From positions 56,298,001 to 56,362,000 of the forward strand of contig NC_045696.1 in the NCBI RefSeq assembly GCF_009834535.1: a stretch of 64,000 bases of DNA, read 5' to 3'. Under the pieces are notes generated by a model. It had not been told where the DNA came from, made no database searches, and saw only the letters and a list, made by a program, of their open reading frames with translations. A program made the translations under genes and the position numbers. This document shows, piece after piece, positions 23,590 through 60,644 of this stretch. The DNA comes from Camelus ferus. Its lineage: Eukaryota. Within the stretch, counting starts at the first letter, position 1. Every line of letters starts with the position of its first letter.

Positions 23590-24329
23590 CTATACAAGCC
23601 TCCTTTAAAGGAAAAATATATGTATTACAGACTGATTCTATCACCTGTTCTCAGGTTACACACGCACCTGCACACATGCACACGTATATATAAAAGTAGG
23701 TATAGATTCCTATGTGTATAGTTCTGTTTACAAGTTAGGCAATTAGAAAGCCAAATCATCAAACTAAACCTAAAAATCCACAAAATCCTATATAATTAAA
23801 TTTAATGTGAGAGATGATGTTTTGCAAAACCCCAAAGTTGTTTAATAATAGAAGGAGTTTTGGTTCTGGTTCTATGTTTAGTTTCTGTCTGCATTTTGAC
23901 TTCAATTATTTTAATGCAGAGAATAACTGTATGCAATAAGCATATTATAGAAAATGTTACTAGTACCATCAAAACTTGTTTTGATGGTGCAGGATAATCC
24001 AACCACACAATGAAACATAATGATGCCAGCAAGCAAGTCCTGAAGACTAATTTTAATAAAGTTTTACTAGATAATAATGTAAAATTATCTTTTCTTAGAG
24101 ATAAGATTAGCATTGTGATGTTATTGAAATCTGAATTAAAGGAGGCATCTCATCTAATTCTTATTAGAGTTTGGAATGAAAAAGTCCTTTATCACAATTA
24201 CCTACCATACTTACTGCTACTAAACTGTTGCAAGTTGGTACATTCAAAGATCAACTCTGAGCAATAGAATCTGAATATAAAATCAACTGCTATGGCAAGG
24301 TCCTCTTGAATCTAGCATGCTTATAAAAC

Positions 24330-34250: not shown

Positions 34251-35198
34251 AACCTGTTTTCTTTCCTACCTTCTCCCCCATTTCTTCCTTTCTGTTTCCC
34301 TACTTTCTATTTCCAGGTTTGTGTAGCCATCGGTGGTCACGTGGTCCCAAGGGCACTCAAAGCATCCCTCGACTAACAGGGCTTCACCTACCTCAGCAGA
34401 GATTGCCAGTGTGTGCGTCCCCTACTGCAAAACCACACCACTAGCAGAGTTCAAGGGGTGGGGCTCAGGTGCCATCCGAGTCCCGGAGAGAGATCTGGGC
34501 AGCCTGTGGCCCAGTGGACACCTGACTGCCTCAGGGACAATGGTGAGGCACCATAATGCTGTAAAGACATGAACACCAAACAGAGGTGGAGAGGTGGCTC
34601 TGAGCTGAGTCTAGCCAGAAGCTGGAACCTGGGGGTGGTGCTGTTCACCAACTTGAACAGAAATAAAACCACCCCTAGCCAAGAGTGGGATACCTAAGGA
34701 CGGAGGAGACTTATCTTCCTAGCAGGTCTGCCACCAAAAAGCCAGGTGGACGCAACCAACACAGTCCACAGCTCTGGTTCTGCAGAAGTTTTCCTTCCAT
34801 TTCTCCATCTGTCTGTCTACCAGCCATTCATCTGGTATATATGAAAACTTTTGTAGATCACAGGCTCCTCAGGACAGAAATCCCCCTGGGCTCATTTAGC
34901 ACCTTTTATCCAAAGGGTATCTTTTATGGGCACTCAACTGGAGTTTTTTATGGGAATGCTGTGAGGTAGTAACAAGACAGGCGATACCCCTCTTTTTATA
35001 GATCAAGAAGTGCTCAAGGTAACACACTGCTCAGGCGAGCACAGCTGAGACATGGGGAGGGCTGGTCAAACGCATGGCACTGGTCTAGTCCCCGAAGGCC
35101 AGAACTGGCCTTCCCTTTGTAGGCCATGGTGCAGCTTGTCCTGGACAAACCTCTACATCCAGACTTGCTCTGCTGTTCACACCAGTGTGGGTTTCAAG

Positions 35199-36527
35199 TC
35201 ACCTTTGAAGTTCACGATAGGCTTTGAGCGGGCCCACAGCTTTTCCCAGGAAGCCACTCCCCACTGCAGGCTCAGGGTCGGTGTCTGAGGAGTCGCTGCC
35301 ACTGGAATCAGAGGAGCTTTGGAAGCAGATTTCACAGTAGGGCCGGTGGCAGCGGCAGAAGAGCTCGTCTGAGCTGCTGGATTCTGTGTCAAGGTAGCTG
35401 CATGGAGAAGACAGGGAGGGGCAGCCTGGAGACCCCGGGGACTGCAGCTGCCGCTGCTCAGGCAGGTCTGCTGGGGCTCTGGACAGGTTGGGAGCAGTGG
35501 GACAGATTGCCCGGCCAGAACCAGAAGGCCGGTAAGGAAAGGTTGCGCGGCTCCCTTGGGCTCCCTGGGGCTCTGTCTGTTGTTGTTTGCTGCCCTCCAG
35601 GGAGCCTGACTTGCCTTGAGGATCTGGGAGTAGTAAAGGCTTCCCAGAAGAGGGTCTTGGTACCCTGGAATCAGCAGTTTGGGGGTCCAGGCAGGGGCTG
35701 TCCCTGTCCTGCACGTTGAGCCCACGGTGCGCCCCAGAAACAGTTCTATTTACCTGACGGCCCCCATACAAGGGTACAGAGCCTGGAAAGTGCGAACGAG
35801 CCCGCAGTGCTGCCCTCCTTCTCCTCACCAGGTGGGGGCTGAAGCCCAGCTCCTCAGAGAGGGGCGTCTTCTGGGGGCTGTGGGCAGCGCTGCTCTTCCA
35901 TGGCTGCCCTGGACAGGACAGAGGAGGGCCAAGGGCAGCCTCAGGGCCCAGGCCCAGATCTTGCAGTACTTCCTGAAGCTTCTCCCTGATCACTGCATTG
36001 ACCCTTGACCGTCGCTCTTGGGGCTCCTCTGAGTTCCCCAGCTGCCCCTGCCTCTGGGGAACAGAGCCTTCTCCACTTGGTATGAGGCTCTGGTGGAGGG
36101 CCACAGGGACCTGGTCTCTCTCTTCTGCACCCTGACTTTGCTCAGCCCACAGCTTCTGGTTGCAGCCCAAATTGAAATGACCAGAAAAGTCTTTCAAGTC
36201 AGAAATTTTCTCTTTCTGCTCTGAGGAGGGGCTGGCATCCTTCCTAGGCCCCTTGAGGTTCTGTACACTGGAGGAAGGCCCTGAGACACTCTGGGAGTCC
36301 CGGGTGGCTGCACGGGTATCGTTCTGAGATTCAGAGAGGTATTCGGAAGGCCCTTGAGCTGCCAGGCTGTGGGCAGAGGCCGCGGCCAGGACATCTGTGC
36401 TGTGGGAAGAGGCAGGAGGGACAGCCCCCTCTGGAGGGTCATAGGCGCACTCAGCTGACATCAGCCTCATCAGTTTCTCTTTGGCGTTGTTTACTTGTTC
36501 CTGCAGGCTTTCAATCACAGCATTTTT
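35199..36527 (-). CDS. GPR156: GPR156 terminal coding exon (coiled coil KNAVIESLQEQVNNAKEKLMRL, long Ser/Pro-rich tail, CRCHRPYCEIC). As written it stops at 35199; the canonical end ...KPTLV* at 35177 is in another frame.
   Basis: ORF 35199..36518 (439 aa) plus acceptor tttcacAG at 36529-36528. The conserved ASWEKLWARSKPIVNFKGDLKPTLV appears in ORF 35177..35725. Confidence 0.95.
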   Translation of the reverse strand, partial: KNAVIESLQEQVNNAKEKLMRLMSAECAYDPPEGAVPPASSHSTDVLAAASAHSLAAQGPSEYLSESQNDTRAATRDSQSVSGPSSSVQNLKGPRKDASPSSEQKEKISDLKDFSGHFNLGCNQKLWAEQSQGAEERDQVPVALHQSLIPSGEGSVPQRQGQLGNSEEPQERRSRVNAVIREKLQEVLQDLGLGPEAALGPPLSCPGQPWKSSAAHSPQKTPLSEELGFSPHLVRRRRAALRARSHFPGSVPLYGGRQVNRTVSGAHRGLNVQDRDSPCLDPQTADSRVPRPSSGKPLLLPDPQGKSGSLEGSKQQQTEPQGAQGSRATFPYRPSGSGRAICPTAPNLSRAPADLPEQRQLQSPGSPGCPSLSSPCSYLDTESSSSDELFCRCHRPYCEICFQSSSDSSGSDSSDTDPEPAVGSGFLGKAVGPLKAYRELQR

Positions 36528-40680: not shown

Positions 40681-40839
40681 TTCTGTGAGGAGTCTCTCCA
40701 TGGAATTTTTCTCTCCTCTAACATGGCAATTCTGTTCCTCACCATACTGGCTATGCAAGCTTTTGCTGGGAGTGCTGAAATACTTGGCCATGCGTCTGAT
40801 TGTTTGGTTTTCCTCTTCAAATACCTTCCATTGCTTCAG
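40681..40839 (-). CDS. GPR156: GPR156 coding exon (proximal C-tail): LKQWKVFEEENQTIRRMAKYFSTPSKSLHSQYGEEQNCHVRGEKNSMERLLTE
   Basis: Manual translation matches the recalled GPR156 sequence. Acceptor tctaacAG, donor GAA|GTAAGC; 159 bp, phase 0-0. Confidence 0.95.
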
Positions 40840-42616
40840 CTGTTAGATAAAAGAACACATGTTATTTATTTAATTACACACCCAGAAACACATTCTCTCC
40901 ATTTCCCAAAAACACCAAGGAATGACAGTGTCACAGATACACACAGGCACAAACTATTCTCCCCTTAAAATCTACTTTACTCTGGATGGTTCACAGATAG
41001 CAATGACAGAAGGTTTAGAGAATGTTAAAATTGAATCATTTAAAAAGTGCCAAAGGAAGATGTCAGGTTGATGACGTAGAAAAATCTCAGCTTGACCCAT
41101 CTACCTACCCACTGCCCGACTGGCCAAAGAAAAGCAGAGTTGAGGTGTACTTCGAGGGCCGCATTCTCAAGCCAGAGTTTAGGAGCAATACCGGGGTTAA
41201 GCAATCTAAACACTGTATGTTTCAAATGAAGCTGGTTTTTGTTGTGTGCAGCTGTTCTTAATTAGTCTCACTTGTTGAGTAATGGTATGCTTACTGCTAT
41301 TGAAAACCCAGCTCCTCGCTGGAAGACTTCTAACCCAAATCAATAGTCAAGGCTCAGACAAAAAGAAAACCACAAATGTCAATAAAAATCAAGAAAAGAT
41401 GATAGAACGATAGGCCGGCGACCTGACCGTCTTCTTCCCTGACAAACGAGCAGAGACTCAGAAGGAGGAGGACCCCAGTTAGAGCAGGGCCTCCGCTGTA
41501 GCCCGCGCACTGCGCTGCACGGCCCACCCTCAGCACAGCCGGTGAACACAGAGACTGTCAACGGGGAGGGGCCTAGGGAACGTTTTTCAGGGGAAACTGG
41601 TTTTGAGAAACAGTCCATGGATACCAGGGACGGGACTGAACATGGAACATTCACAAACAAGGGCACGCACCTGAGCCTCTGGGACACTGTCTCTTCCTAG
41701 CAAATGCCAGTGACACAAATGCCAGGGGAACCGAAAGGGCTTGAGGTGTCTCCTTTTCTCCTTAGGGATTCCCATAATTAAGAGCCCTAGTGATGGACGC
41801 TGGGCACTCTGGCCCCTTAGCTCTAGAAATGCTGCTAAGGTGTCTGTGGGGAGTCTCAAGGGATCCTGGGATGTCTTTGCTCGCTTGTCAAATACTTACT
41901 AAGCTCTGACTATGGAATACAACCCAAATTTGGTAAATCCCAGATAGGATTATAAATCCCACCATCAATTTCAATGCCACATCCTGCTCAAGTCCTCTTT
42001 GGTCTGCGGTTGACTCAGCATGAGTCCACGGTACCGGAGTCAGAGTAACCTGTGCTGGGTCAGGCCAGGAACCTCCCTTCTCAGATACCCTTCTTGAAGG
42101 CCCCTCCCTAGGGTGCCATCATCTCACTGTCCTCCTCAGGAGTTGCTGGAGCGCAGGAGTTGCAGGGGTAGGGGTGGGTGGATGAAGCAGCCCCCAGCGT
42201 CGCTCTCCTAGCACGGCCCCTAGCAGTGCTGCCGTAGCTCTGCGCCCCCTCAGGGCCCCTTAGCAGCACAGCTCTTCCCTTCTCTCCCCACAGCACCCTG
42301 AGTCCAAGCCCTCCCTGCAGGGCTGCTGGAGGGACTGCTCAACACTAGTGCAAGCGCACTTCCAAGGCTTTTGGTCTGTCTCACCCGAAGCAGGCTGCAT
42401 GCAGCCAGGGTGCCCCTCGAATAAAGCCCCTGCCTTCAACCCCCTCCCCCTTAATTCCCTTGTGAAGGTCCTGGTCCTGGTCTTGTACTTGACCCTTTAG
42501 GATTTCTAGAATATGGCTATAAATCACCCTTAGCTAACAATTTCAGGAGCTCGTCAACGCCCTTTCTTCAGAAGGACCAGCGTAGCATTATTTTCTCAGC
42601 ATCTGGGCTATGTGGG

Positions 42617-43106
42617 TGCAGGAGGCAGAGAACGGCCCCCAAAAGATGTTTCCCTCCTGATCCCTGTAACTTTGTGAATATGTTACCGTCCATGGCAAAA
42701 GGGATTTTGCAAATGTTACTGAGTTTAAAATTTTGAGACGGGGAGATTGTTCCAGATCATCCAGGCGGGCCCAATGTAATCAATCACAAGAGTCCTTATA
42801 AGAGGGAGGCGGGAGAGATGTGACAATAGAAAGAGAGATTACGAGATGCTGCACTGTTGGCTCTGAAGAGGGAGGGAGGACCTGCGAGTCAAAGAATGCA
42901 GGCGGCAGGTGGACACTAGGAAAGGCAGGGAAACAGATTCTCCCCACAAGGCTCCAGCAGGAACGCAGACCTACTAACACCTTGATTTCAGCCAAACAAG
43001 GCCCACGTTAGATTTCTGAGCTCCAGAACTTAAGCTAGCAATCTGTATCGGTTTAAGGCCCTCAACACGTGGTAGTTTGTTACAGCAGCACTAGGAAACC
43101 AGCACA
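42617..43106 (+). mobile_element. Complete MLT1 (MLT1D-like) solo LTR, TG...CA, with a perfect 5-bp TSD
   Basis: ggcccccaaaagatg...catggcaaaagggattttgca...ggtagtttgttacagcagca. TSD GTGGG at 42612-42616 and 43107-43111. Confidence 0.9.
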
Positions 43107-43605
43107 GTGGGACTAAGCCTCAGCTCCAGAGCAGGATGCTCCCGGGCCTTCAGAAGTTCACCCCTCGTGCCTCTCTCACCTGCTACTCCCCTTGTTTTGA
43201 TTTGTGCTTTGAGAAGAGCACAGACTCCGGGTGTTCCAAACACCTCCTCTTCTCTCTCATACCTCTCCGCCTCTGGTCAGGGAGACCCCTCGTCTGAAAT
43301 GCCACCCACTGCTCCCCCCTAGTCTGCTCAGTGAGCTCTTAATCCTACTTCAAGATGGGCCCAAACACCCCATTTTCTGAGACTGTGTCACTGAGTCCCC
43401 ACACAGGCTGGGACACCCCTTCCTCATCATAGCGTGACATGACTTCCTCAAACACTTTATAATATGTATTATAAATCCTTTCACATCCGCTCCCAAGTAG
43501 ACTGAGAATGGGGCTGTGTGTTTAACTGCATGTTCCCAGCAGTTAGTAAATGGATTGACAGATATACAAATGAAGGAAGCTTTTCTTTAAAAAGTTCATC
43601 TGGGG

Positions 43606-43632
43606 GTGCTCAATTCAGCAGCACATATACTA
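43606..43632 (+). pseudogene. 3'-truncated (tailless) U6 snRNA retropseudogene, nt 1-27
   Basis: gtgctcaattcagcagcacatatacta versus U6 GTGCTCGCTTCGGCAGCACATATACTA is 24/27, with two differences being CpG-to-CpA. Flanked by the direct repeat aaag(t/c)tcatctgg. Confidence 0.85.
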
Positions 43633-43646
43633 GAAAGCTCATCTGG

Positions 43647-43776
43647 TGGCAGAGGGTGGATATAGCTCAGTGGTAGAGTGTGTGCTTAGCATGCATGAGG
43701 TCCTGGGTTCAATCCCCAATACTTCTATTTAAAAAAATTAAGACTGCCTTTGGGGCTTCAAAAAAAAAAAAAAGAA
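43647..43776 (+). mobile_element. tRNA-Ala-derived SINE (vic-1-like) with poly-A
   Basis: tatagctcagtggtagagtgtgtgcttagcatgcatgaggtcctgggttcaatcccc (AGC anticodon remnant). TSD aaagctcat(c/t)tg at 43634-43645 and 43777-43788. Confidence 0.9.
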
Positions 43777-45319
43777 AAAGCTCATTTGTCTAGTAGGGTT
43801 GCTGTGACATTTACAGAGAGCTAAAAGGAAGAGCAGAAAGTCACAGGCACCTTCACAGAGGAGTAGATGAACACTTGGTGGGTTTAGATGAGAAAATAAC
43901 GTCTGACTTCAGGACCCCACCTGCCTCCCAAAGGCAGAGGCAGAGGAGGAGAATGTGTGGGAGGATAAGTCACATTCAAACCACAAAAGCAGGGGTTGGC
44001 TCATTGCTGGTGATGACCTCAGTGTTTGGCATAAACACTTAGGCATTTCCTGAGGGCCTCTGAGAATGCTACTTGGTCTGCTTGCTTTTTCAGTAACGTC
44101 ATCCAATTCACCCAGCTTTCTAGCACTGCCTGGCTACCCTTGAGATATCTGTGCCTTTGCTTTCATAAATTTCTCCCATCAGAGTCCAGTCTGAAGGCTC
44201 AGTAGCAAGAAGGAAGCCCACCTTCCTGTCCCTTTCCCTCCCCATGTGGCTCTCCTCACACACTTTTCCAAATATGCTCAGCCATTCCACTGTCCTAGGA
44301 ATACCCAGTCTCAGGTCTCACTGGGAGCATCCTTCTTTAACCAAAGGCCACCCAGCCAGAGGAGAAAATCAATTCAGGGGCACACAAACCCCAACAAACC
44401 TGTTACTTTTATACTTTGAAAAAGATTTAGCTCCTAAACCTAAAATACAATAGCCTATAAAATATATTTTTTAGTTTCAGATCATGGTCAGTTCAAGAGG
44501 AGGAAAAGCATGAGAGAGAAAATAGAAAAGACAGAATATGAGAAAGTACACTCAAGACAGACAGGAGGGCTGAGGGAGAGAGAAGGAAAGAGAAAGGCCA
44601 ACTCTGTCCCTCTGCCCAGTTCCTGTACCATCCCCCATTTAATTCCATTTCCACTCCGCTTCAACAAACCAAGTGCTTGTTGTGTAGTTCAAACCTGCAA
44701 GTCAGATTCCAGGCTGAACTTCATCCTGCAATTTTATGTCTGTGTATAGATGGGAGTGTACCTAGATGTCACTTCTGTCCTAGAGGCTGAGGATTTAAAC
44801 ACCGAGAAGAGTGGAAATCTGAGGCTTAGGATGCAAGAGGGACAGAGGCCAGTGTGGAGAGAAGAGACCCAAGTAGGGCTGCATCATGCAAGTTTACTAA
44901 TTCACTCCATTTTCAGATGGAGGTCTTGTTTTAGATCAGAAAGGCTTTCTTCTAATAGATCCTTGGTGATTAATTCTGCCCCAAATTATCTTGTCCTCTT
45001 TCAGAGACTCCTACTAGCTCTAAATTGTATCCTTAGATCTGTTCTCCATATTTCTTATTTAGTCTCTCATTTTTTATTTGTTTCCTTGTTTTCTATTTCC
45101 TTAGATTAATCCACTAATTCAGTATTTTGCCATGTCCAACTGCCTATTCATTGCTTCTGCTGGGATTTTAAAGTTAACATAATATTTTTCATTCTTATTC
45201 AATATTTCATGATTTAAGATTATGTCCTTTTCATGATGGTTTGCTTCAGTTGAAGAGAGGCAGTATCCTTTGAATTTTATTGACAAGACTAAAAAGGTAT
45301 CTTGTGAAAACTTATTCTA

Positions 45320-47410
45320 AAATAAAAGGGATCCAGACTGGAAGAGAAGAGGTAAAATTGTCACTATATGTGGATGACATGATATTTTATATAGAAAACC
45401 CTAAAAGCTCCACACAAAAACTACTAGAGCTGATAAAAGAATTCAGCAAGGCAGCAGGATACAAGATTAACATACAGAAATCAGTTGCATTTCTTTACAC
45501 TAACAACGAAATAGCAGGAAAAGAAAGTAAAGAAACAATCCCATTTAAAATCGCATCCAAAACAATAAAATATTTAGGAATAAATTTGACCAAGGAGGTG
45601 AAAGACTTATATGTGGAGAACTACAAAACACTGATTAAAGAAATTAAAGATGACTTTAAGAAATGGAATGATATCCCATGCTCTTGAATTGGAAGAATCA
45701 ATATTGTAAAAATGGCCATACTGCTCATGGCAATCTACAGATTTAATGCAATCCCTATCAAATTACCCAGGACATTTTTCACAGAACTAGAACAAATAAT
45801 CCTAAAATTTAAATGGAGTCACAGAAGATCCAGAATTGCCAAAGCAATACTGAGGAAAAAGAACGAAGCTGGAGGAATAACCCTCCCAGACTTCAGACAA
45901 TACTACAGAGCTACAGTAATGAAAACAGTATGGTACTGGCATAAAAAACAGACATACGGATCAATGGAACAGAACAGAGAGCCCAGAAGTAAATCCACAG
46001 ACCTACGGTCAATTAATCTTCAACAAAGGAGGAAAGAATATGCAATGGAAAAAAGACAGTCTATTCAGCAAGTAGTGTTAGGAAAACTGGACAGCAGCAT
46101 GTAAATCAATGAAGTTAGAACACTCCCTCATACCATACACAAAATAAACTCAAAATGGCTTAAAGACTTAAATATAAGACAAGACACAATAAACCTCCTA
46201 GAAGAAAACATAGGCAAAACATTCTCTAACATAAATCTTAGCAGTCTACCCAGGCAATAGAAATAAAAGCAAACATTAACAAATGGGACCTATTAAACTT
46301 ACAAGGTTTTGCACAGCAAAGGAAACCATAAGCAAAACAAAATGACAACCTATGGAATGGGAGAAAATATTTGTAAGTGATGTGACTGACAAAGGTTTAA
46401 TTTCCAGAATATATAAACAGCTCATACAACTTAATAAGAAAAAAACAAACCACCCAATCCAGAAATGGGCAGAAGATCTAAAAAAGCAATTCTCCAGTGA
46501 AGACATACAAATGGCCAATAGGCACATGAAAAAATGCTCAATATCATTAATTATCAGAGAAATGCAAATCAAAACTACAATGAGGTATCACCTCACACCA
46601 GGCAGAATGGCCTTCATTCAAAAGTCCACAAACAATAAACGCTGGAGAAGGTGTGGAGAAAAGGAAAACCCTACCACACTGTTGGTGGGAACGTAGTTTG
46701 GTGCAGCCATTGTGGAAATCAGTATGGAGATTCCTCAAAAAACTAAAAATAGACTTACTATATGATCCAGCAATCCCATTCCTGAGTATATATCCTGAGG
46801 GAACTCTTAATTCAAAAAGATACATGCACCCCAATATTCATAGCCACACTATATACACTAGCCAAGACATGGAAACAACCTAAATGTCCATTAATCGATG
46901 ACTGGATAAAGAAGATATGGTATATTTATACAATGGAATACTACTCAGCAATAAAAAAGAATAAAATAAGGGCATTTGCAGCAACATGGATGGACCTGGC
47001 GATCGTCATTCTAAGTGAAGTAAGCCAGAAAGAGAAAGAAAAATACCATATGATATCACTCATATGTGGAATCTAAAAAAAAAAAAAGAAAAGAAAAGAA
47101 AAAAGAGGACACTATGAACTCATCTACAAAACAGACATAGTAAATAATTTTATGGTTACTGGGGGAAAGGGAGTGGGAAGGGATACATTTGGGAATTTGA
47201 GATTTGCAAAGGTTAACCACTATGTATAAAAACAGATAAAAGAACAAACTTCTACTGTATAGCACAAGGAACTACATTCAGTATCTTGTAATAACCTTTA
47301 ATGAAAAAGAATATGAAAACGAATATATGTATACATATGCATGACTGGGACATTATGCTGTACACCAGAAATTGACACATTTTAACTGATTATGCTTCAG
47401 TTAAAAAAAT
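45320..47410 (+). mobile_element. 5'-truncated L1 (about 2.1 kb: RT C-terminal half, Cys domain, 3' UTR), antisense in a GPR156 intron
   Basis: ORFs 45280..45687 ([11 protein letters not shown], the RT YxDD region; KYLGINLTK), 45712..46104 and 46352..46696; contains stops and frameshifts. Confidence 0.96.
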
Positions 47411-49114
47411 CTATTTTACTTCAGAGGAAGACAGCTTCTCTAAATCAGAAATTTGTGGTCCTCTTCTTGTGAACTACAGAATCTCTTCTTAGGTCCTTTC
47501 CTTCTGAATGTATAGTCTTACATGGGAAGAGCTATAGTTTCCTGCTGTAGTAAATACATTTTCTTGGCTTTTCCCTCATCACCACAAGATGATTGCCATA
47601 GCCCCAGGTGTCACAAACATTCAGGGTAAGTAGAAGGTAGAAGAGATGATGCCAACCACACCTATAGCTTTTTTAGGAAAGCAAAAGCTTTCTCAGAAGC
47701 CTCTCAGGAAACCTTTAGTGTTCAAAGTTGTCACCCCTGGCAGAGCAAGTGTTTAGCTCTTTCAGCCTACATAGTGGAGGTGAACAAGGAAGAAAGGGTT
47801 TGGCAATGGGGGGATGGGTTATCAATCAATAATGTTGACCCCAGGGCCTAAGGGGTGGGCTTCCCAAAAGTCTCCTCTCCACTCTCTTTTCCCTACCTCC
47901 CAGGGAGGAACAGCCCTGGCTTTTCATAGCCCTTTCCGGCTACATCCCAGACAAGTAAGACGCAGCTCTCACTGGCTTCCTTCAGTCCAGTTCTGATAAT
48001 ACTAAGATTCAACAAAAAGTTCTCTCATTTTTGGCACAGAGGCAATATCCATCCTTGATTTTTAGAGCTGCTTCTACAGCTTTTTTCATATTTGTTCATT
48101 CTCTTGAGTATTTTGATGAGAATGTATGAAAGGGAAGGAGAGTAAAGGGCCTACGCCTGAGTCACACTGTTGTGCCCCAAAGTGCTCTCTTCCCTTTTAT
48201 AAACACACTGTCACCCTCCATCAGCCAGAACTTTAATTACGGGTTAGCTCCCTCATGGAGAAGTCATTCTTAGCCAACTGGAAGATGCAGTGGGAGTCAG
48301 GATGCGGTCTTGAGGGAGTCGTGGGATGACGGGAGGCCTCATGGGGGAAGAAAAAAAGAGCTAGCAGGAACCTAGGAAAAGTGCCTAATGCCAAGTTCAC
48401 TGACTTGAATGTGTGTGGTTCAGTGGTACCTGGGGCATACGTGAATAATTTAACCTCACTTTCCTTTCAGAGCCGGTGGATTCCTTCACCTTTTCCTCTG
48501 ACTCCCTTTCTTTCTCTTGGCTGTCTGGAAATTTCTCCTTCTGTCTTCCTCCCATTTGCTTTTTCCTTAATCCTCATAATAAGAAACACATTTTTAATTT
48601 AGTTTTTATTTTTCCTTATTATGAAAAGAAAAGGAATGTTCTACATTTTTCTCTAATAAAAAGGTAAAAAAGCATGTTAAATTGCATAAAGGTCAAAACG
48701 CCTTTTCCCCTGTGAACATGCAGCCGCAAACAGGAAAGAAGGAAAGATTCCTCACTCCCGGGCTAGGAAAAGAAATGACATTTTCAGGGTGAAGGGGGGC
48801 TGAGGATGTGTGAAGCGGACTGGAAGGTGGGTGGGAAAGCAGTTTCTGTGAGAAGCCGCCAGGGCAGAAGTGGGGACACTGCTCCGTGGCTCTGACCTGC
48901 CCTCCTTTCTGACAGGGAGCAGAGTTACTCCTTCAGGACATCGAGAAGGGAAGAACAGAGGGGATCAGCCCGATGGGAACCGCACTTTCCTCTGACTCAC
49001 CAATCAGCGGTGCCCAAATGTCTCAGCAGGAAACGACGTGAACAATTTATCATTCTAGCCAAGTCTCTGCCATGGTGGGGAGGACTGGTCCTCCAAATTC
49101 CCCCTTGAACATAC

Positions 49115-49351
49115 CTGGGGAATGAAGATGAAGCAGTTGATTGCGGTCGTGCAAACAAAGATACCCCCAGATGTGAGTCCAAAGACCAGGTTGGGCCAGG
49201 AGTGCAAGTATCTGGTGACCACAAAAAGCAGCCCAGCAGCCAGCACCACGAGGTTGACCCCAACCATGATGGTTAAAGACTGATTCACAGGAGGAGAGCT
49301 GACGTGGTCAGTCAGGCCAGCCAGGTAGGCCCCATAGAGCAGCAGCAGGCC
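49115..49351 (-). CDS. GPR156: GPR156 coding exon (TM5-TM7): GLLLLYGAYLAGLTDHVSSPPVNQSLTIMVGVNLVVLAAGLLFVVTRYLHSWPNLVFGLTSGGIFVCTTAINCFIFIPQ
   Basis: Overlaps ORF 49055..49288 and ends in the class C TM7 F-x-P motif. Acceptor tctgcAG, donor CAG|GTATGT; 237 bp, phase 0-0. Confidence 0.97.
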
Positions 49352-51419
49352 CTGCAGACGGAGAGAGAACCAGAGGCTCAGAGAAGTGAAATATGAGGCT
49401 CGGGGTCAAAGAGCAGTCAGGTTGGGACCAATTTCCTCATCTGTAAAATAGGGATTCACCTACCTTGAAGGGTTGCTATGAGGATTTACTAAGATAGCAT
49501 GTGGGAAGACCCTTAGGGTGGTCCCCTTACACCTCGTGTGTGCTTAGTACATTTTATTTTCCTCTCTTTCTCTGAGAACTAGTTTATCGGAAGTCAGCAC
49601 ATCAACCATCAGACAGGACTCTGCCGGGATGCAGCACAGGACAGGATGGTACAGGTGCGTAGGAGCCCTAGAGGACAGGCTGCTGGGCACTAGGAGGGCA
49701 GCGGGCCAACTGTGCTGCTGGTGGTGAGGGCCTTCCCCTCCACTGTGTGGTTTTGCACTGCATCAAGCTGAGGGGCATGCGGGAGCTGAAATAGCCCCAT
49801 GGCCTGCTTGTCAAGCCATGCGCCGTGGCAGGGGCAGCGCCCGGAGGAAGGGGTTCTTTTCTCTAATTTTTCCCAAAGGCACCATCTGCTTGCCAAGCCC
49901 TGCACCTGTGAGACTGCATCTGCCCAGAAGGGATGCCTTTTTCTAATTTACACAAAGGATCTCTATAGGCTAGCAGTGGCTCTGTGCCAGTGGGTATTTA
50001 TGGGAGAAGAAGAGCAGAAAAAAAAAGAGAACAAAGGCAGGCCGGGCCCTAGCCAGGACTGTGGGACAGGCACAGGGAGCAAAGGCCCCAACTATACCCT
50101 TCACCGTCTCTGTGTCATTCCTTGCCCCACCCCCCGGAACCCAGGGCCCTGTTCTTTCCTCTTTGTCATGAATGTAAACCTGCTTTCAGATTTCTCATTT
50201 GTACTTTGGAGAAAATGACTCACAGCGTCTTAAAGTGCTGCCTCTCCTAGAGGGAGCTGCATATGAACAGAAATCAAAACTTTAGTCAATAATACACAAA
50301 ATATAGATTCAATATATGTCCACTTGATTAGGTGCAAAGTACCGTGCTTGGGTAGGTGTAGGGCAACGGTGCTGCCAAGTAGAAGTCAGGGCTCTAGCTT
50401 TTAAGAAGCTCAGTCTGGTTGGGAGATTTAAGGCAAGCACACCAATATCCATGTTTATGACCCAGAATGTGAAGATGCCATGGGGATGAGGTGGAGTGGG
50501 ACTACGGGGATTCAGAGGGAGAATCAATAATAAAAGTAAGGTCAGGTATCAGGAGGGCACCTGCCAATGACCCTGAAATCACACCATCTGACCAACTCCA
50601 TCTGCAGAGATGGCCCTAAGGACACTTTTTTGGAGGACTGGCTGTGCCTACAGTGAAGGAGTTGGCAGCAGGCAGCACAGCAGGGATGCTGTCTGGGTGG
50701 CCCTGATGCTCAGTGTCCCAAATGGGGCCTGAGGGCCAAAAGTGGCCACTGTGATATCTTCAATGACTAGAAAATACACAAATCAGGAGGCCAGTGGGGC
50801 TGACTTTTGGAAAACTGACGTCCTTAGGTGGCATTCAGCAGAGTCAGTACATTAGTGATTTAATTAAAGGTGAATAAAATTAATTCTATGACTTTGAAAT
50901 GTTCAAATCTGATTCTGCTGAAATGTTTTAACTCCATGAAAATTCTTTCCAAAAGGGAACTAGGTATGAATAAAGCCTGTGTACATGTATGGCTTGTGTT
51001 TGAGTGAGTCACATCCGATACTTGTGGGTCACACGCCCTAAATGTTGAGCATTGTCGGGAGGGGTGGGGGCAGGCTGAGGGGGGCAGTCCTGGGACTTCA
51101 TGTGCAGATGTGGGGTCCTCCTCAGGAACTGCTCGTCAAATAGGGAGCCCGGGGGATCGGGCTCAGTCAGTTTCCTGACACTCAGCACTCTTTCCCCCTT
51201 TTCTTTCTTTGTCCTACAGAAAGATATTGCAGTGAAATAAAATGGAAATGGGATTATATAAAAGGCAATGGAGAAAATAAATCACGTTGAGTCGCAGAGT
51301 GAGTTGCTACGGGGGACGTGCTGAGTTCCTGTGCCAGGGAGGACGTCCTCTTCTACAGGGACTGGAAGAGCGGGCGAGGCACTGGGCTTTCAGGACCGGG
51401 CAGTGGAAGATTAATTATA

Positions 51420-51650
51420 ACAAAATAATATCTAACAGTTAGTAAGCTCTTACTATGTTGAAAACTCAACACACATTAACTCTTCAAAACTCAGAACCAT
51501 TCTGAGATGGTGTTATCATTATCCTTATTTTACATATGAGGGAACTGAGGCTCAGAGAGGTTACGTGAGGTTCACTCAGCTAGGAAGGGGCTGAGTCAGA
51601 ATTCAAACCCTGTTCTGTCATATTGTGAAGCTCATCTTCTTAACCACTAA
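51420..51650 (-). mobile_element. MIR SINE
   Basis: ttttacatatgagggaactgaggctcagagaggtta...gattcaaaccc. Confidence 0.8.
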
Positions 51651-52668
51651 TAAGAAACTAGAAATCAAAAGCTGTTCACTTCCTACCATTTTCTCTTAAA
51701 AATACTTCAATCAAAGTAGCACATGCACATAGTTAACAAGCAACGTTTCCCTGGCCTAGCTCTGTGCATCCTCAGGCCTGTTTCTTAGAAGCAACCGCCT
51801 GAACACTTTCTGAGTAGTGAAGTGAGTAAAAATTTACCTTTATAGGCCACTTATTTCTACAAAAACTCCTTCTCCTCTGCCAGCAATCAACCAGGCCTCT
51901 CTGTCCTGATAGTCAACAGGCAGCCTCCCACCATGCAGGGCTTGTCCTGGTCACTGAAATCGGCCTGCCCCATGCCCCCCAGAGCCAGATTCTCTGTCCC
52001 TCCAAGCTGAAAACCAGCTAACAGGAGAGCTGGTTCTGAGGACCTCCCTTCGTGCCCTGTAGATTTATCTGTGCCCTCTGGAAATATCCTCCTTTGCCAT
52101 CTAACAGAGACAAATGAGTCTAATGACAGGAGAGTCAGGGCAAATGGGAGACACAGTGAGGTAGCTGGAACCACTCAAAGGACCCTATGGATGTTGCCAT
52201 CTATCTCTGGGCCAGCCATGCTTCCAACCAGAGCGAGAAAGTTAGATGGCCAGAAGGCAGCAGGATACCTTGACCTAAATCTAGAAGAAAAACAGAAGAG
52301 AGGTAATATGGGCACTTAAGAGAACAAAATGTTTCCTCATAATTCCCCTTGTAGGTAGCTGGGGAGAAAACTGGTATTGCCAAATCAGTGAAAAAAATCA
52401 GACCAATAGATGGGAGAAATAGTGGGTAAATTCCACATGATTTGGAGGAGGACTGAATCAGGGAATCCAAAGAGTTGATAAAGTGACCCCTCCAAACAAA
52501 TAAAAAGTAGAGACATAATAATGGTCATGGCTTTGAGATTTATGTGTCAACAGAGGTCTCCTCTGATTGCAATATTCTTCGCAGAAATCACCTCGTTAAT
52601 TCCCAAAATTCTTCTTCATATCCACTTTGTTGGTGACAGTAGTATCCTAAAGAGATATGGTTACCAAC

Positions 52669-52764
52669 CTTGCATCCCAAAACGAGAGCAATCCAGACAT
52701 CAGAGTACCGGGAAGCACAGAAGTGTGTGCTGGTCAGAGAGCAGGACACATCTCTCCCTGTCAC
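52669..52764 (-). CDS. GPR156: GPR156 coding exon (ECL2-TM5): VTGRDVSCSLTSTHFCASRYSDVWIALVLGCK
   Basis: Manual translation. Acceptor ccctcctAG, donor AAG|GTTGGT; 96 bp, phase 0-0. Confidence 0.95.
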
Positions 52765-53184
52765 CTAGGAGGGACACGGAGTCAGGACTGAGGGCACCCA
52801 CAATTACCAGGAACATACACATGCGGCAGATCTTTGTAAACATTCTGGATCGTGAATTCCCCTACAGCATATAATTTCTCCCTTAATATGTAAAATCTGT
52901 AACATTTGGGTGAGTCCATTAGAATCTAAAGAGGGTTACTATGAACTGGAGGAAAAGACGATACAGTTGGGCTGACATGTGGATGCTGGGTGCCAGCAGG
53001 AATTACCCCTGTTACGTGCTTTGCTACTACAGTGATTCAAATTAGCGCATCAGCATAATTACAAGTTATTTCACATCCTGTCCCTGCTATCTGTTAACAG
53101 CGAAAACCTTAAATATTCAATCTGCACTGTCAAGATTCCACTGTATTCCTCAGGCCCTTTATGAGGCTAGAGACATAATACTTC

Positions 53185-53400
53185 CCATTAACTGAACACT
53201 GTATACTGGGCACAGCTGAGTCCTTTTTCTGCATTGTTTCACTTAATCTTCACCACAGCCCTATGAAATAGGTATATTATTATCTCCATTTTTACCTATG
53301 AGGAAATAAAGACTTATAGAGGTTAAACAACTTTCCCACAGTCACATGGCTGCTAAATGGTAGAGCTGGGATTTGAACTGGGGTTGACTGACTCCAAAGA
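53185..53400 (-). mobile_element. MIR SINE
   Basis: cttaatcttcaccacagccctatgaaataggt...tttacctatgaggaaat...ggtagagctgggatttgaac. Confidence 0.8.
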
Positions 53401-53774
53401 ACACCTCAAAATACTACCTTTATTTTTCAACAATTAAGGTAAGGCAACTCTGTGTAGCTGAAAGTTTTCATTATTGATACTGTGGGAGCAGACACTACTG
53501 CCAGGCAGATTCCAGAGTGCTGACATCTCAGTGGATGCGGCTGGAAAACACTTGGGGTGGGAGGAGAAGTGGGTGTGGCAGCACACCCTGCAGACAAGGG
53601 GCAGGCATTCACCACAGCCACAGCTCCTGACTCTCCATCTTCTGTGGGTCATTTATCTTCTTGCTGGGAGGATGCCCACATGGTAAACGCTACAGGGAGA
53701 ATGTCCCCCGTGAACCCACAGAAGCCAGTCCCTCCAGTTCAGGAACTAGATTCTCCAGGGATTGGGCTCCTCAC

Positions 53775-53900
53775 CGTCATACTGACACTGAGAATCTGGA
53801 GGCACTGGATGGGGTCAGTCAGCACCCATGTCATGAGCAGGATCACATCAGCTATCACCAGGGCTGCCACCAACCCCAGGAGCTGTAGGTCTTTGATGAT
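53775..53900 (-). CDS. GPR156: GPR156 coding exon (TM4-ECL2): IIKDLQLLGLVAALVIADVILLMTWVLTDPIQCLQILSVSMT
   Basis: Manual translation shows the W-x-x-x-D-P end of TM4. Acceptor ttttgcAG, donor ACG|GTGAGG; 126 bp, phase 0-0. Confidence 0.96.
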
Positions 53901-54439
53901 CTGCAAAAGAGTCAAGGCTGTAATTTTCCTTTGCTCACTGGCTATGCAACACTAGGGCTCGAGTGTCCTATGTGCTCTGAGCTAAAGGCTCCTAGGTCAG
54001 ACTTCCAAAGGGGCTTCAAATGCAGCCATCAAAGATGAAACAGACAGTAAATATGTGCAAGGATTTCTATGTCTATATCATCATTAAACATTTTCATTCA
54101 TTTATCTTTTCCATATCCTTGCTTTTCCCACAGAATAGTCAAGGGATCTTATAAAATAAATACACTGTTATTTCTAGATATGTTCATATGAGCACATAGA
54201 AGATGTGGAAGTTTTCACATAAACTGTTAACAGCCATTAACCTGGAGGGTGGGATTGAGAGATAAGGGTGGTGAAAGAGAGATTACTAGCATTTTCTCTA
54301 TACATATGTGAATCATTTGACTTAATACAAAGAGAATGTGTTATTTTTGTGGTTACAAAAATAAAATTAAGAAAATATACATATAGCAACAGGATGAAAA
54401 ATTGAAAAATATTAAGGTAAAGAGACAATAAGGAGAATT

Positions 54440-57400
54440 AGGATGAATACTCAGGTGAGGAGAGCACACAGCATTCAAGAACTAGGGCAGAATTGTGGAC
54501 CTGCATTTTTGACAACCAATGAAAAGAAGGAAGCACAACTAGTTACATGATTCATCATGTTTGTAAGATAAAAACAAATCAATTGCTTAATCAAACTACT
54601 CCAAGCCAGTGATAAGGTGAATATCTTCAAATCAACCAGCAAAAAGTGACATATCATGTATAGAGGAACAAATATAAGGAAGACATCAGATTTTTCACCA
54701 GATAGAAGGCCACATGAGAAAACAGTGGAAGGGAATCTTCAAAGTACTAAAGAAAAAAACTTCTTCAATCTAGAATTCTGTATCTAAAAAAAATATTTTT
54801 CAAAAAGAAAAGTGAAGAAGGGAAGGGTATAGCTCAGTGGTAGAGCACATGCTTAGCACCCACGAGGCCTTGGGTTCAATCCCCAGTACCTCCATTAAAA
54901 TAAATAAATAAACCTAATTACCCCCTCCAAAATTAAAAATAAAAAATTAAAAACAAAACAAAACAAAAACAAAAGTGAAATAAAGACTTTTTTCAGATAA
55001 ACAAAAACCAAAAGAATTCAGCATTAGCACACCTGCATGAGAATGTTAGATATCCTAGAAGCAAAACGAAAATGATACCAGATGAAAATATGGATCTATA
55101 CAAGGAAATTAAGAGCTCTGGAAATGTTTAACTTCATGGAAAAATATATGACTGATTTTTTTTATTTAAATATTTTAAAAGGTAACTGTCTAAACAAAAA
55201 ATAATAACAATTGCGTGGGGCTTATAATGCATATAAAAGTAAAAACAACACGAAGATTGGAAAGTAGGGAAATGGAAGTATCCTATTGTAAAGTACTTAT
55301 GCTATATGTGACTGTCAGTTATACAATTATACACAAACTCTTCCAGAAGTTGAAGAAGAGGAAATATTTCCCAATTCATTCTACAAGGCTGGCATTATTC
55401 TGTTACAAAAACCAGAAAAAGATTTTAGAAGAAAAGAAAGCTACAGAGCAACATCCCTTAAAAACATGAATACAAACATTACAAACAACATATTATGAGA
55501 ATGAATCCAACAATATAAGACAAGGATAATACATCATGATCAAATAGAGTTTGTCTCAGGAATGCAAAGTTGGTTTGAGATCCTAAGATCATTTAATGTA
55601 ATATACTGTATGAGTAAACTAAAAAAGAAAAATCATATGCTTAATAGACACACATTAATAGAAAACACATTTGACAAAACCCAACATTAATTCTTTATAG
55701 AAATTCTCAGCAAAATAGGAATGGAAGAGAATTCCCCTAACTAGATAAAGGGCATCTGTAATAAAATTACAGATAAAATCATACTTAGTTTTGATCAAGA
55801 CTTAATGTTTTCCCCACGTGATCAAGAAAAACTCAAAAATGTCTGCTCTCAGCACTCCTACTGAACATCATAGTGGTGTTTCTAGCCAGTGCCATCACAG
55901 AAGAGACTGGAAAGAAACCATCTTTTACAGAAGATGATCATCTATGTAGAATATCTGATGGAAACTACAAAAAAGCTACTAGAACTAACAAGCAGATTAG
56001 CAAGGGTGTAGCATGTAAGATCAGCATACAAAAATTAACTATATTTCTATTTATTAGCAATAAAAATTAGAAAGTAAAATAGAACAGTAACATATATAAT
56101 ATCATAAAAATATAAAATACTTAGGAATAAATTTGATAAAAGAAATGAAAGACTTCCACTGAAAACTACAAAAAAAATTGCTGAGAGAAATTAGAAAAGA
56201 CCTAAATAAATGAAGAAATATATACTGTGTTTTTGGGCTGAAAGACACAACATTATTAAAAAGTCAATTCTCCACAATTTGATCTATAAATTCAACACAA
56301 TCTCCATCAAAATCTCAGCAAAAAATTTGAAGAAATTGGCAAACTGATTCAAAACTTCATATGGAAATTCCACAGACCTAGAATAGCTAAAACAACATTG
56401 AAAGAGAAGAACTAACATTCCTGAAATGAAGATTTAGTATAAAGCTACCATAATACAGTGTTGGTGTCAAAATAAACTACATCAATGAGACAGAGTCCAG
56501 TAACAGATCCACACATCTACGAGCAAATGACTTTCAATAAAGGTGGAAAGGTAACTCAGTGAAGAAACGACAGTCTTTTCAACAAATGGTGCTGGAACAA
56601 TTAGATATCCATATATAAAAAAAATAAATTTCAACCTACAGATCACATCATATTTCAAAATTAAATCAAAATGGATCACAGACTTAAATGTAAAAACAAA
56701 AACTCTTAAAACTTCTGGAAGTAAACACGGGAGAAGAACTTTTGGGGCCCTGGGTTAGGTGAAAGATTCTTAGATCTGACACCAAAAATATAATCTATAA
56801 AAGATCAAAGTAGTCAATTGGACTTCATCAAAATTAGAAACATATTCTTTTTGAAAGACATTCTTAAGTGAATGAAAAGTCACAAACAGGAACAAAATTT
56901 TTGCAATTCATGTATTTGATAAAGGACTGTATCCAATAACTCAATAACAGAAAACAAACAACTAAATTAAAAAAAATAGGTGAGAGATTTGAGCAGATAC
57001 TTTATCAAAGAAAATATATGGATGACAAATAAGCATATAAAAAGATGCTCAACATTGCATCAGGGAAATGCAAATTAAAACACAATGAGATACTACTACA
57101 CACACCTATTAGGATGACAAATGTGAAAAAGATCAATCAAGTCAAATGTTGGGAGGATATGGAAGAAAGGGACTCTCATATACTGTGGGTGGGAATGTAA
57201 AATGGTACAATCACTTTCGAAAACAGGCATTTTCTTAAAATGCTATACATTTACTTAATATGATCCAACTACTCTTAGGTTTTTAACCAAGAGAAAGGAG
57301 CATATGTTTACACAAAGACTTGTATACTAGTGTTCACAGCAGTTTTATTATTAATATCCCCAAACTGGAAACAAACCCAGACACCCATCAACAGGTGAAT

Positions 57401-57800
57401 GGATAAACAAACTAGTTACTCTACACACTGGAATATCACAGCAATAATGAGGAAAGAACCACTGATGCAAGCAACAACATGGATGAATCTCCAAATAATT
57501 TTGCCAAGTAGAAGACAGATAAAAAAGAATACATGCTGTATAATTCCATTTATATAAAATTATGGAAAATGCAAACTAATCTATAGGGACAGAAAGCAGA
57601 TCAATGCTTGCCTGGGGACAGGGACAGGGGATGTAAGAATTGCACAGGAGAGGGAGATGACAAAGTTGTATGAGGAAACTTGCAGATTATACCTCATGTT
57701 TCATGGTCATATAGATATGTCAAAACAGCAAATCATACACTTTAAATATGTGCAGTTCACTGCATATCAATTATATCTCAATAAAGCTATTTTTGAAAAA
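54440..57800 (+). mobile_element. Old, heavily mutated L1M element (ORF1 remnant, ORF2 remnant, 3' UTR), antisense in a GPR156 intron
   Basis: Degenerate ORF2 motifs (caggaatgcaaagttggttt, atacttaggaataaatttga, cttttcaacaaatggtgctggaacaatt); ends in tctcaataaagct. Confidence 0.88.
54817..54970 (+). mobile_element. tRNA-Ala-derived SINE (vic-1-like) nested in the old L1, 9-bp TSD
   Basis: ggtatagctcagtggtagagcacatgcttagc...gggttcaatccccagtacc and an A-rich tail. TSD aaaagtgaa at 54808-54816 and 54971-54979. Confidence 0.9.
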
Positions 57801-58630
57801 AGGAACCAGTGGTCTAGAGGAATGGATGAACTTACTGTCCTTTATACAATCTTTTTCATATGTATGGTTACTCAAAGCAGAGCTTTTGTAAAATATTTAC
57901 CACAATTCAACAATGTTTGCTAAAAAAAAAAGTCTCATCATTCCAGAAAAGTAAACTCTAACTGAGTGATATACTGGGTCTGGGCAGGGCCTATATTGAC
58001 AAAGGGTTTGATGATCAGGCTTGAGGTTTGGGCAGCTTTGCTAGGAAACCTGATAAAGTGGGGGAATGTGGTTAGGATGACACTTGATGTCAGGGACATG
58101 CAGGTATCTGGCTGCCACATAGCTTAGAGGGCTGATTCCGTCTAATCCATGGATGTGCTCTTCCTTGCTCACTGCTCCAGGCTCATCCTTCTTGGTGCAG
58201 AGAATGGCTTCTTATACGGAAAAGAACTGGGCTCCAAAGAGGGAAGAAACTGCTAACTAGCTACAGCTTCTCTGTAACCACTCTCCCTCTGTCCACTTTC
58301 AGCTCACATCTGTGCCAAGCAACAGCCTCTCTGGGCATCTTGCTCTCCCTCATACTGGTGCCAGATAATGGCCAGCTCACACATTCCCCCAGAGCAGTAC
58401 CAGGGCCTGGGGTGCATATGAAGCAGAACCTTTGTTTAAAAATCTATATCCCAATAGCATCGACACAGCCTTCCAGCCTTGGAATTTATGAGGGTACATG
58501 ACTCCAAGGTTTGAAGCAGGAACTTCAGATCGACATAAAAGGGCCAGGCTCAGGAATCTGGCACAAGCTTCTCTAGCTTTTAATCAATAGTGGAGCTGCT
58601 GTCTACAATCAAACAGTGTTGCCTACTCAC

Positions 58631-58741
58631 CACTCTCTTGTCCGGAACCCTCTGGGTAAACACCCTGTAGAGTCGCCAGCTCTTCCCCAGAATGGGACCA
58701 AACACAAGGGAGGTCCCAATGCACAGCATGGACAGTCTTAT
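58631..58741 (-). CDS. GPR156: GPR156 coding exon (TM3-ICL2): IRLSMLCIGTSLVFGPILGKSWRLYRVFTQRVPDKRV
   Basis: Manual translation shows the GABA-B-like K-S/T-W-R TM3 motif. Acceptor cctgtAG, donor GTG|GTGAGT; 111 bp, phase 0-0. Confidence 0.96.
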
Positions 58742-58997
58742 CTACAGGTGAGAAGGGACAGAAGCAAGAGGCATAAGAGGAACCTTTGTGGTTCTCCACA
58801 CATTCTCATCTGCAGAGCCTCAGTCCACAGAGGGCCTAGGGCAGAAAGTGGACCTCACTGACTCAGCGTTCCAGGGATCACCTCTGAAAGTGCCCACACC
58901 AAGGATAAGGGTAACCACCGCCCACAGGAGCAGATGATTTTAAAAATTATCAAAACTTTGGCACTATATTCAAAACAAAATTGAAGACTTCACCTAC

Positions 58998-59133
58998 CTG
59001 AATGAGAGTTTCCATTGAGCTTCCAGCTAAAGCACCTTGATCTCGAATCCCAAAGAGGTAAGCGCTACTGTAAGTCAGACAACTGCCCAGTAAGGTCACA
59101 ATGTTCAGATTGGGACTGGACATCTTCACAATC
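58998..59133 (-). CDS. GPR156: GPR156 internal coding exon (ICL1-TM2-ECL1): (R)IVKMSSPNLNIVTLLGSCLTYSSAYLFGIRDQGALAGSSMETLIQ
   Basis: Carries the class C/GABA-B-type IVKMSSPNLN motif and matches GPR156 as recalled. Acceptor cctatAG|G at 59135-59134, donor CAG|GTAGGT at 58997-58996; 136 bp. Confidence 0.96.
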
Positions 59134-60644
59134 CTATAGGAAACCAGGGAAGAAGACACCTATTGTCATGACCTTTGCCCTGGGAGTGGATAGAGCTTCC
59201 CCACCAGCCTAATCTCCAAAGCAACCTCAGAGTAAAAGGCCACTGGGAAGAAAAAACTTTATACCCTGTGAAACTCTTATGATTTATTTTATTTACATTT
59301 ATTTTCAAAAAGAACTAAATCCTGGCATTTCTTGCTTGTGTAACTCCAAGGCTTTTAAAAGAAGGCCAACTTCCTAAAAACAGGTGGTATCAGAGAAGAG
59401 TTAGGATTTTTCCATGAAGTTTATGGTTGCTAAGAGATTGCTCTATGCAGCCTAGTGAACAATAACTAGCAGGTAGATACCTAAAGAGATACAGCTTGGA
59501 GCCTTTAAAAATGAGCTGTAAGGTAAACTACCATTTGGGAAAAGCTTGGGGATTTTTCATTCACTATTTGCTTTATTTGACACATAAGTTCTTTTTCTGT
59601 TTCTGACCAAGAGAGAAAGAGAAAGCAGGGGTTGAAACCAAGAAATTTGGGAAAGGTCTTTTCTCCAGTGATTTCAAATGAGGTTACAGAGCACATTAAA
59701 GATGAGAGGGAAATGTAAACAATCAGGGTCTGAGACAAACCCTGGGCACCAACAGACGCTCAGGACAAGGTAGAAATACATGAATTAGTTAACCTACAGG
59801 GAAAACCACGCTTATCTTGGATAGTGACCGATAACAATTAAGAAGAAAAGTAACTAGTATCAATTAAGAAGGAATGTAATTGTACTAAAGAGTTTTAGTC
59901 TAAATAGGATATTCTACACAAATGCAATATTTATACTATTAGTCATTTGATAATTATACTTTTATTTTTAAATAATAACTATCTATGGACCTGGATTACC
60001 TGGCTGACCACCTTGAAGGCCAGAGCCAAGGCAAAACCACCTACTTAGAACAGCCTAGTCTAAAGTCCTAAGGTAGCTGGGGGGCATTAAACAAACAGTT
60101 GGGCAGTGCTGGACTTAGAACCATCACAACCACCATCGGCCCAGTTTGTTCACTTTGTAGCTGGCACCATAATTATGTCCACACACACACAGGAATACCA
60201 AACCACTGCCCGGGACTCAGGCCCAAGTATGGTCACTGTGGGCTAGTGAGTCCAGTTGAGCTTTACCTAGTCTATGAGCAGAAACCTTGATTTTTTTTTT
60301 TTTCTTTCTGCCTTTAAAAGAAAGAACAACTTTCATGTATTCCCTTTGTAAATGGGGATGATCATAAAACCAAAGAGTTGTGAGGATTCAATGATGCAGT
60401 ATAGAAAGTATGTGGCACAGGGTCTGGCCTGTAGTAAGCATGTTGCCAACATAGCTGATGGTACTAATCTCACCATCTTCCAGGCTTTAGAAACTGGAGA
60501 ATCACCTTTTCCTTTCCCTGTTTCTTTATTAGCTCTACCTAGTCAATTGCCAGTTTCTTTCACCTGCTATTTCACAATCTCACTGGGCTGTCCCTCACTC
60601 TCCATTTCTGCTGCCACATTTACCCAGGATACAGTCACGTTAGG

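What the first reader, a model, noticed from the sequence alone, without database searches (positions are those of the whole stretch)
35177..35270. +1 frameshift puts the conserved GPR156 C-terminus (...KPTLV) out of frame
Seen: the minus strand reads GAG CCT GCA GTG GGG A GTG GCT TCC TGG GAA. The exon start (36527) to the canonical stop (35177) is 1351 nt, which is 3n+1. As written, the protein ends AVG-SGFLGKAVGPLKAYRELQR* (19 new residues). Removing one G from the run at 35259-35262 gives AVG-VASWEKLWARSKPIVNFKGDLKPTLV*, the same length as and nearly identical to the human tail as I recall it. Knowledge: C-terminal T-x-V fits a class I PDZ-binding consensus; GPR156-Galpha-i signalling orients inner-ear hair cells; a last-exon frameshift would escape NMD. 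Inference: the orphaned frame is undecayed, so this is either a homopolymer assembly error or a recent allele or lineage change that removes a possible localisation motif.
Basis: partly seen in the sequence, partly recalled or inferred. Interest (0 to 1): 0.7.

Follow-up and report, generated by a model that had tools for sequence, protein, structure and literature searches.

The report
Likely assembly typo in camel GPR156
One extra base in this wild-camel genome assembly shifts the last 26 amino acids of the hearing gene GPR156 out of frame, but a second wild-camel record and all other camel and alpaca records found keep the normal ending, so it is likely an assembly error that has been copied into public protein databases.

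Summary
The frameshift is in the sequence: the last GPR156 exon is 1351 nt (3n+1), and as written the protein ends in 19 new residues instead of the conserved 26-residue tail ending KPTLV. It is probably not camel biology. Of 8 camelid protein records, 6 keep the normal tail: two dromedary, two Bactrian, one alpaca and a Camelus ferus record from a different assembly (EPY76844.1). That last tail matches the window's orphaned frame 26/26. The 2 records with the shifted tail (RefSeq C. ferus) lie on a contig exactly as long as this window's contig, so they are not independent. No read-level G3/G4 count was obtained, and the other wild-camel record is a different haplotype, so a rare real allele remains possible (about 10%). 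A fixed lineage change is nearly excluded. The tail fits a class I PDZ-ligand pattern, but I found no binding evidence in print. Low interest; a database correction is warranted.

The parts
35177..36527 (-). Coding part of the last exon of GPR156 (human exon 10 of 10), acceptor to canonical stop; 1351 nt, one base too long
   Evidence: matches C. ferus RefSeq P0125 residues 367-808 exactly
35258..35262 (-). Site of the surplus base: G4 run (35262-35259) plus adjacent A (35258); which of the five is extra cannot be told from protein data
35199..35258 (-). Shifted frame as written: 19 new residues ending ...ELQR, stop at 35201-35199; protein 808 aa instead of 815
35177..35257 (-). Orphaned canonical frame: 26 residues ending KPTLV and stop; identical 26/26 to 5 Camelus records, 25/26 to alpaca
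35180..35188 (-). Terminal T-L-V, fits the class I PDZ-ligand pattern (binding untested)
   Evidence: pattern from PMC7138185
35325..35357 (-). Conserved Cys/His cluster upstream of the break, retained in both readings
40681..59135 (-). Six upstream coding exons of GPR156 (residues 78-366: about 59135-58998, 58741-58631, 53900-53772, 52761-52669, 49351-49115, 40839-40681), with no other frame break; residues 1-77 were not found in the window and presumably lie beyond its high end
   Evidence: exact match to P0125; two boundaries are off by a codon or two in the greedy mapping

Best explanation
This assembly carries one surplus base at 35258-35262 in the last exon of GPR156, and it is likely a consensus error rather than a base in the animal's DNA, so the real protein would be the normal 815-residue receptor ending KPTLV. 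Inferred mechanism: an over-called short G run, or a heterozygous G/A site written as both letters, during consensus building. Automated annotation then accepted the nearby shifted stop and published the 808-residue form in RefSeq and UniRef.
For: (1) EPY76844.1 (P0140, C. ferus, 2,777,389-bp scaffold, hence a different assembly) has the normal tail, identical 26/26 to the window's orphaned frame. (2) Two dromedary, two Bactrian and one alpaca record also have it. (3) The only shifted records, P0125 and P0121, are 100% identical to the window's exon and lie on a 122,453,268-bp contig, the length of G000:C1. (4) 191 of 194 fetched GPR156 proteins, fish to mammals, end in the motif F-K/R-x-D-L-x-P-T-L/F-V; the other three are P0121, P0125 and one partial rodent model. 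In the search made with the shifted protein, 119 of the 120 listed representatives (of 133 hits) were canonical. (5) The break sits at a G run; in PacBio assemblies of six organisms over 70% of indel errors fell in homopolymers (PMC8574707, passages). (6) A second extra-G frameshift sits in a GRAMD1C exon 5 Mb away on the same contig, checked against PDB Aster-C. (7) The tail matters: a zebrafish stop at aa 734/797 abolishes hair-cell reversal (PMC8129141), and human last-exon frameshifts cause recessive deafness (PMC10033407; PMC10562426). A common or fixed allele is therefore unlikely (inference).
Against: No reads were counted at the site. P0140 differs from the window at 4 of 423 residues upstream in the same exon, and no fetched camel record shares the window's haplotype, so the window's own haplotype has no independent witness. 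The sequencing technology of this assembly was not established. In PMC8574707 the G/C errors in GC-rich genomes were mostly deletions, not insertions. A run of 3-4 G is short. The GRAMD1C case is one anecdote, was not compared with other camels, and could itself be real. The 194 proteins include isoforms, searches were queried with a canonical tail, and cluster representatives hide members (P0125 was hidden behind P0001). An earlier scan note reports real inherited frame breaks in camels (KCNMB3; not checked here).
Confidence: 0.87

Rival explanations
1. A real, rare 1-bp insertion carried, probably heterozygously, by the assembled animal and captured in the haploid consensus. It would escape NMD and give an 808-residue receptor with an intact 7TM core and G-protein-contacting segment but without the last 26 residues. 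It would likely be a recessive loss-of-function allele, through degradation or mislocalisation.
For: The window's exon haplotype is unique among the Camelus records fetched. Human GPR156 has pLI 0 and heterozygous carriers are reported unaffected (PMC10033407; PMC10562426), so such alleles can persist. Real 1-bp G duplications in this exon exist in humans (c.1863dupG). An undecayed orphan frame is expected under this reading as well.
Against: Seen in one assembly only and in 0 of 6 independent camelid records. A second extra-G break nearby suggests a pattern of the assembly. From my own knowledge, not a call: erroneous frameshifts usually outnumber real ones in draft consensus sequences, more so in conserved segments.
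Confidence: 0.11
2. A fixed or common wild-camel change that replaced the GPR156 tail, altering receptor anchoring in hair cells.
For: Two RefSeq C. ferus proteins and their UniRef copies show the shifted tail.
Against: Those records come from the same assembly as the window. The other C. ferus record is intact. The orphaned frame has no amino-acid decay (26/26). Loss of the distal tail is deleterious in fish and people.
Confidence: 0.02

Closest known systems
GPR156 (class C orphan GPCR, Pfam PF00003 7tm_3); camelid records XP_010969164, XP_064350903, XP_006210398, EPY76844
   Same: Same gene: 98% identical to the dromedary protein over the last exon; exon chain intact up to residue 789.
   Different: This assembly alone has one surplus base 26 codons before the stop.
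RefSeq XP_032335886.1 / XP_032335899.1 (C. ferus GPR156 X1/X2; UniRef A0A8B8T0U5, A0A8B8T198)
   Different: Nothing: they are this sequence as annotated. The names as listed carry no low-quality flag.
Human GPR156 last-exon frameshifts p.S642Afs*162, p.P718Lfs*86, p.His622Alafs*30, and zebrafish gpr156 sa34566 (stop at aa 734/797)
   Same: Last-exon truncations that remove the conserved terminus; loss of function (PMC10033407, PMC10562426, PMC8129141; passages).
   Different: They remove 64 to about 190 residues, including the Cys/His cluster (inferred from position). The camel shift would replace only the last 26. Those alleles are genotype-verified; this one is not.
Homopolymer indel errors in long-read assemblies (PMC8574707)
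   Same: Single-base indel at a short run that breaks a predicted protein.
   Different: That study covers microbes and protists and found mostly deletions at G/C runs; the technology behind this assembly was not determined here.

Membership tests
GPR156 orthologue | 7tm_3 (PF00003) domain plus long tail, best hits named GPR156 | tested here: met
GPR156 orthologue | Single-copy locus, not a duplicate or retrocopy | tested here: met
   1 match in G000 for the 301-base query; introns present
Assembly consensus indel error | Absent from independent assemblies of the same and sister species | tested here: met
   0 of 6 independent camelid protein records, 1 of them C. ferus; protein level only
Assembly consensus indel error | Absent from accurate reads of the assembled individual | not testable with these tools
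   No read-level count at the site was obtained
Assembly consensus indel error | Located at a homopolymer or other error-prone context | tested here: inconclusive
   4 of 5 candidate positions are in a G4 run, 1 is the adjacent A; the run is short
Lineage-specific change or gene loss | Shared by independent individuals of the lineage | tested here: not met
   P0140 intact
Lineage-specific change or gene loss | Decay of the abandoned frame | tested here: not met
   26/26 identity to 5 Camelus records
Class I PDZ-binding motif | Free C-terminal X-S/T-X-hydrophobic | tested here: met
   PT[LF]V end in 191 of 194 proteins; definition from PMC7138185
Class I PDZ-binding motif | Demonstrated binding to a PDZ domain | not testable with these tools
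   No report found: 10 papers listed; 2 opened for GPR156/PDZ passages; 0 papers; 0 of 6 supplement files; the word PDZ is absent from the main text of PMC11621567, PMC8129141 and PMC10202454

The most novel reading that the evidence does not exclude
A genuine loss-of-function allele segregates in the wild camel that swaps only the last 26 residues of GPR156. It would be the most distal GPR156 truncation among those I found described, a natural test of whether the fish-to-mammal conserved PT(L/F)V terminus anchors the receptor at hair-cell junctions, and a recessive deafness risk in a small population.
Probability: 0.11. Interest if true: 0.45.

Novelty: not a real feature. Interest (0 to 1): 0.1.

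Why it matters
If it is an error, the practical point is that the current RefSeq/UniRef wild-camel GPR156 proteins carry a wrong C-terminus, which could be misread as camel-specific evolution of a hearing gene. If it is a real allele, it would isolate the role of the terminal 26 residues of a deafness-linked receptor and would matter for conservation genetics. Either way, the near-invariant terminus is a testable candidate PDZ ligand for which I found no binding study.

Tried and rejected
Duplicate or pseudogene copy: rejected, single match in G000. Break located elsewhere in the exon: rejected, only 5 adjacent positions of 1351 give the camelid junction and tail. A test for exact identity with P0140 over the whole exon returned no position because of 4 upstream amino-acid differences. 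Rescue by a cryptic mini-intron: GT and AG positions near the break were listed; they allow only spans under about 100 nt through conserved coding sequence, so I judged this implausible, but it was not tested with RNA. Run search: 20 of 24 listed runs hold part of the 2-kb stretch, best word share 0.97, none 1.00; this is not diagnostic, because ordinary substitutions between camel haplotypes explain the shortfall. Search of short proteins: 13 hits, best 76% identical, no camelid record. Literature: GPR156 + camel gave 3 papers, none on this allele by title and abstract start. GPR156 is absent from the 6 supplement files of PMC9482650 that are held as text. Supplements of other PDZ screens and of bioRxiv preprints were not seen and could hold GPR156 binding data. 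No structure or complex prediction was run, because the tail is predicted unstructured (PMC11621567) and no partner is known. The four earlier scan notes naming GPR156 concern unrelated microbial 7TM proteins; a sequence look-up found nothing.

Full report
Observation. On the minus strand the last coding exon of GPR156 begins after an AG acceptor at 36527 and reaches the canonical stop at 35179-35177 after 1351 nt, one base more than a whole number of codons. Read in the exon's frame, the protein follows other camelids to ...EPAVG, then gives 19 unrelated residues and stops at 35201-35199. The next frame holds the normal 26-residue tail ending KPTLV. A G4 run lies at 35262-35259 with an A at 35258. 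The region is single-copy in G000. Six upstream exons in the window (residues 78-366) match the annotated protein without another break.

What organism and gene. The best hit of the exon's translation is dromedary GPR156 at 98% identity. Its 90% cluster has 7 members. Five have the normal tail (two dromedary, two Bactrian, one alpaca). Two RefSeq Camelus ferus isoforms (P0125, P0121) have the shifted tail. These two are 100% identical to the window's exon and lie on a 122,453,268-bp contig, exactly the length of G000:C1. They are therefore this assembly's own annotation and add no support.

Independent wild-camel evidence. A search with residues 560-815 of a Bactrian protein found P0140 = EPY76844.1, labelled C. 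ferus, on a 2,777,389-bp scaffold and so from another assembly. Its tail is normal and identical 26/26 to the window's orphaned frame. In total 6 of 8 camelid records are normal, and the 2 that are not come from this assembly. The limit of this evidence: P0140 differs from the window at 4 of the 423 upstream residues of the exon, and the window's combination of polymorphic residues is not shared by any other fetched Camelus record. P0140 shows that the shift is not fixed in the species. It does not show that the assembled animal lacks it.

Conservation. 191 of 194 proteins fetched end in F-K/R-x-D-L-x-P-T-L/F-V; the exceptions are P0121, P0125 and a partial rodent model. The 194 are the best 120 of 133 hits, 6 extra cluster members, 13 of 13 hits and new rows among the best 120 of 155 hits. 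They include isoforms, and two of the three searches used a canonical tail as query. The search with the shifted protein alone gave 119 of 120 canonical. The orphaned tail matches the consensus of 81 non-camelid eutherian representatives at 24 of 26 and keeps a Gly at position -8 found only in the 5 canonical Camelus records. An undecayed frame is expected both for an error and for a young allele, and argues only against an old lineage change.

What the tail does. G-protein coupling uses residues 320-338; the cryo-EM construct stopped at residue 346 and the rest is predicted largely unstructured (PMC11621567, passages), so the last 26 residues are not needed for coupling in that system. The distal tail is needed in vivo: a zebrafish stop at aa 734 of 797 abolishes hair-cell reversal (PMC8129141, passages). 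Human last-exon frameshifts cause recessive hearing loss, and two such proteins were absent or much reduced in Cos7 cells (PMC10033407, passages; PMC10562426, passages). All of these remove more than the camel shift would. The terminal T-L-V fits the class I PDZ-ligand pattern (PMC7138185, passage). I found no binding study: GPR156 + 'PDZ-binding motif' gave 0 papers; GPR156 + C-terminal + PDZ gave 10 listed papers, of which the 2 opened had no link between the terms; GPR156 was absent from 6 of 6 supplement files of one large PDZ screen; PMC10202454 (passages) leaves intermediary proteins for GPR156 localisation unidentified. The localisation-motif idea is thus plausible and untested.

Is the assembly prone to this? 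An earlier scan note pointed to GRAMD1C, 5 Mb away on the same contig. I fetched it. The exon's translation follows PDB Aster-C up to ...WSSL and then continues in the next frame, with the break at a GG pair. That is a second extra-G frameshift in a conserved exon, though I did not compare it with other camels. Homopolymer indels are the typical residual error of long-read consensus (PMC8574707, passages); in that study G/C errors were mostly deletions, and I did not establish this assembly's technology. No read-level count at the GPR156 site was obtained. The run search listed 20 of 24 runs holding part of the stretch, none completely, which does not discriminate.

Verdict. Shown: the extra base in this assembly, its propagation into two RefSeq proteins, the intact tail in six independent camelid records including one C. 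ferus, and deep conservation of the tail. Inferred: that the base is a consensus error (0.87), rather than a private allele of the assembled animal (0.11) or a common wild-camel change (0.02). The finding is most likely not a biological feature; interest 0.1.

Noticed in passing
L002:571-675 (G000:C1 about 51,266,970-51,267,074), break at L002:652-653: A GRAMD1C (Aster-C) exon also has one extra base at a GG pair; the translation follows PDB Aster-C up to the break and resumes in the next frame. Not compared with other camels.
   Followed up: partly
window 35177-35210 (-): The terminus F-K/R-x-D-L-x-P-T-L/F-V is kept from fish to mammals at the end of an otherwise fast-evolving tail (191 of 194 proteins). 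It is a candidate class I PDZ ligand with no binding study found.
   Followed up: partly
window 35325-35357 (-): A Cys/His cluster followed by a Ser/Asp-rich run is conserved from fish to mammals just upstream of the break. It might bind metal, be lipidated or be a kinase target; these are untested guesses.
   Followed up: no
window 35177-35749 (-): An alternative frame of the last exon is open for 190 codons up to the canonical stop. A yak gene model (P0051) contains a piece of this frame, and the long novel tails of human frameshifts (fs*162, fs*86) suggest it is open in humans too.
   Followed up: no
window 35259-36527 (-): Four Bactrian-type records (window/P0125, P0140, P0124, P0126) differ at five residues of this exon (395, 415, 469, 502, 582), each with its own combination.
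   Followed up: partly
window 35201-35203 (-): All five canonical Camelus records have Gly at position -8 of the tail where 186 of the other 186 canonical proteins have Asp or Glu; alpaca has Asp.
   Followed up: no
window 33439, 32872, 32058, 31223 (-): Candidate polyadenylation hexamers 1.7-4.0 kb downstream of the stop.
   Followed up: no
window about 2130-2670, 10560-11610, 15570-16110, 22800-23620, 46020-47100: Mutually similar repeat fragments (75-86% identity), some with LINE-1 ORF2-like translations (label recalled). Ordinary old repeats.
   Followed up: no
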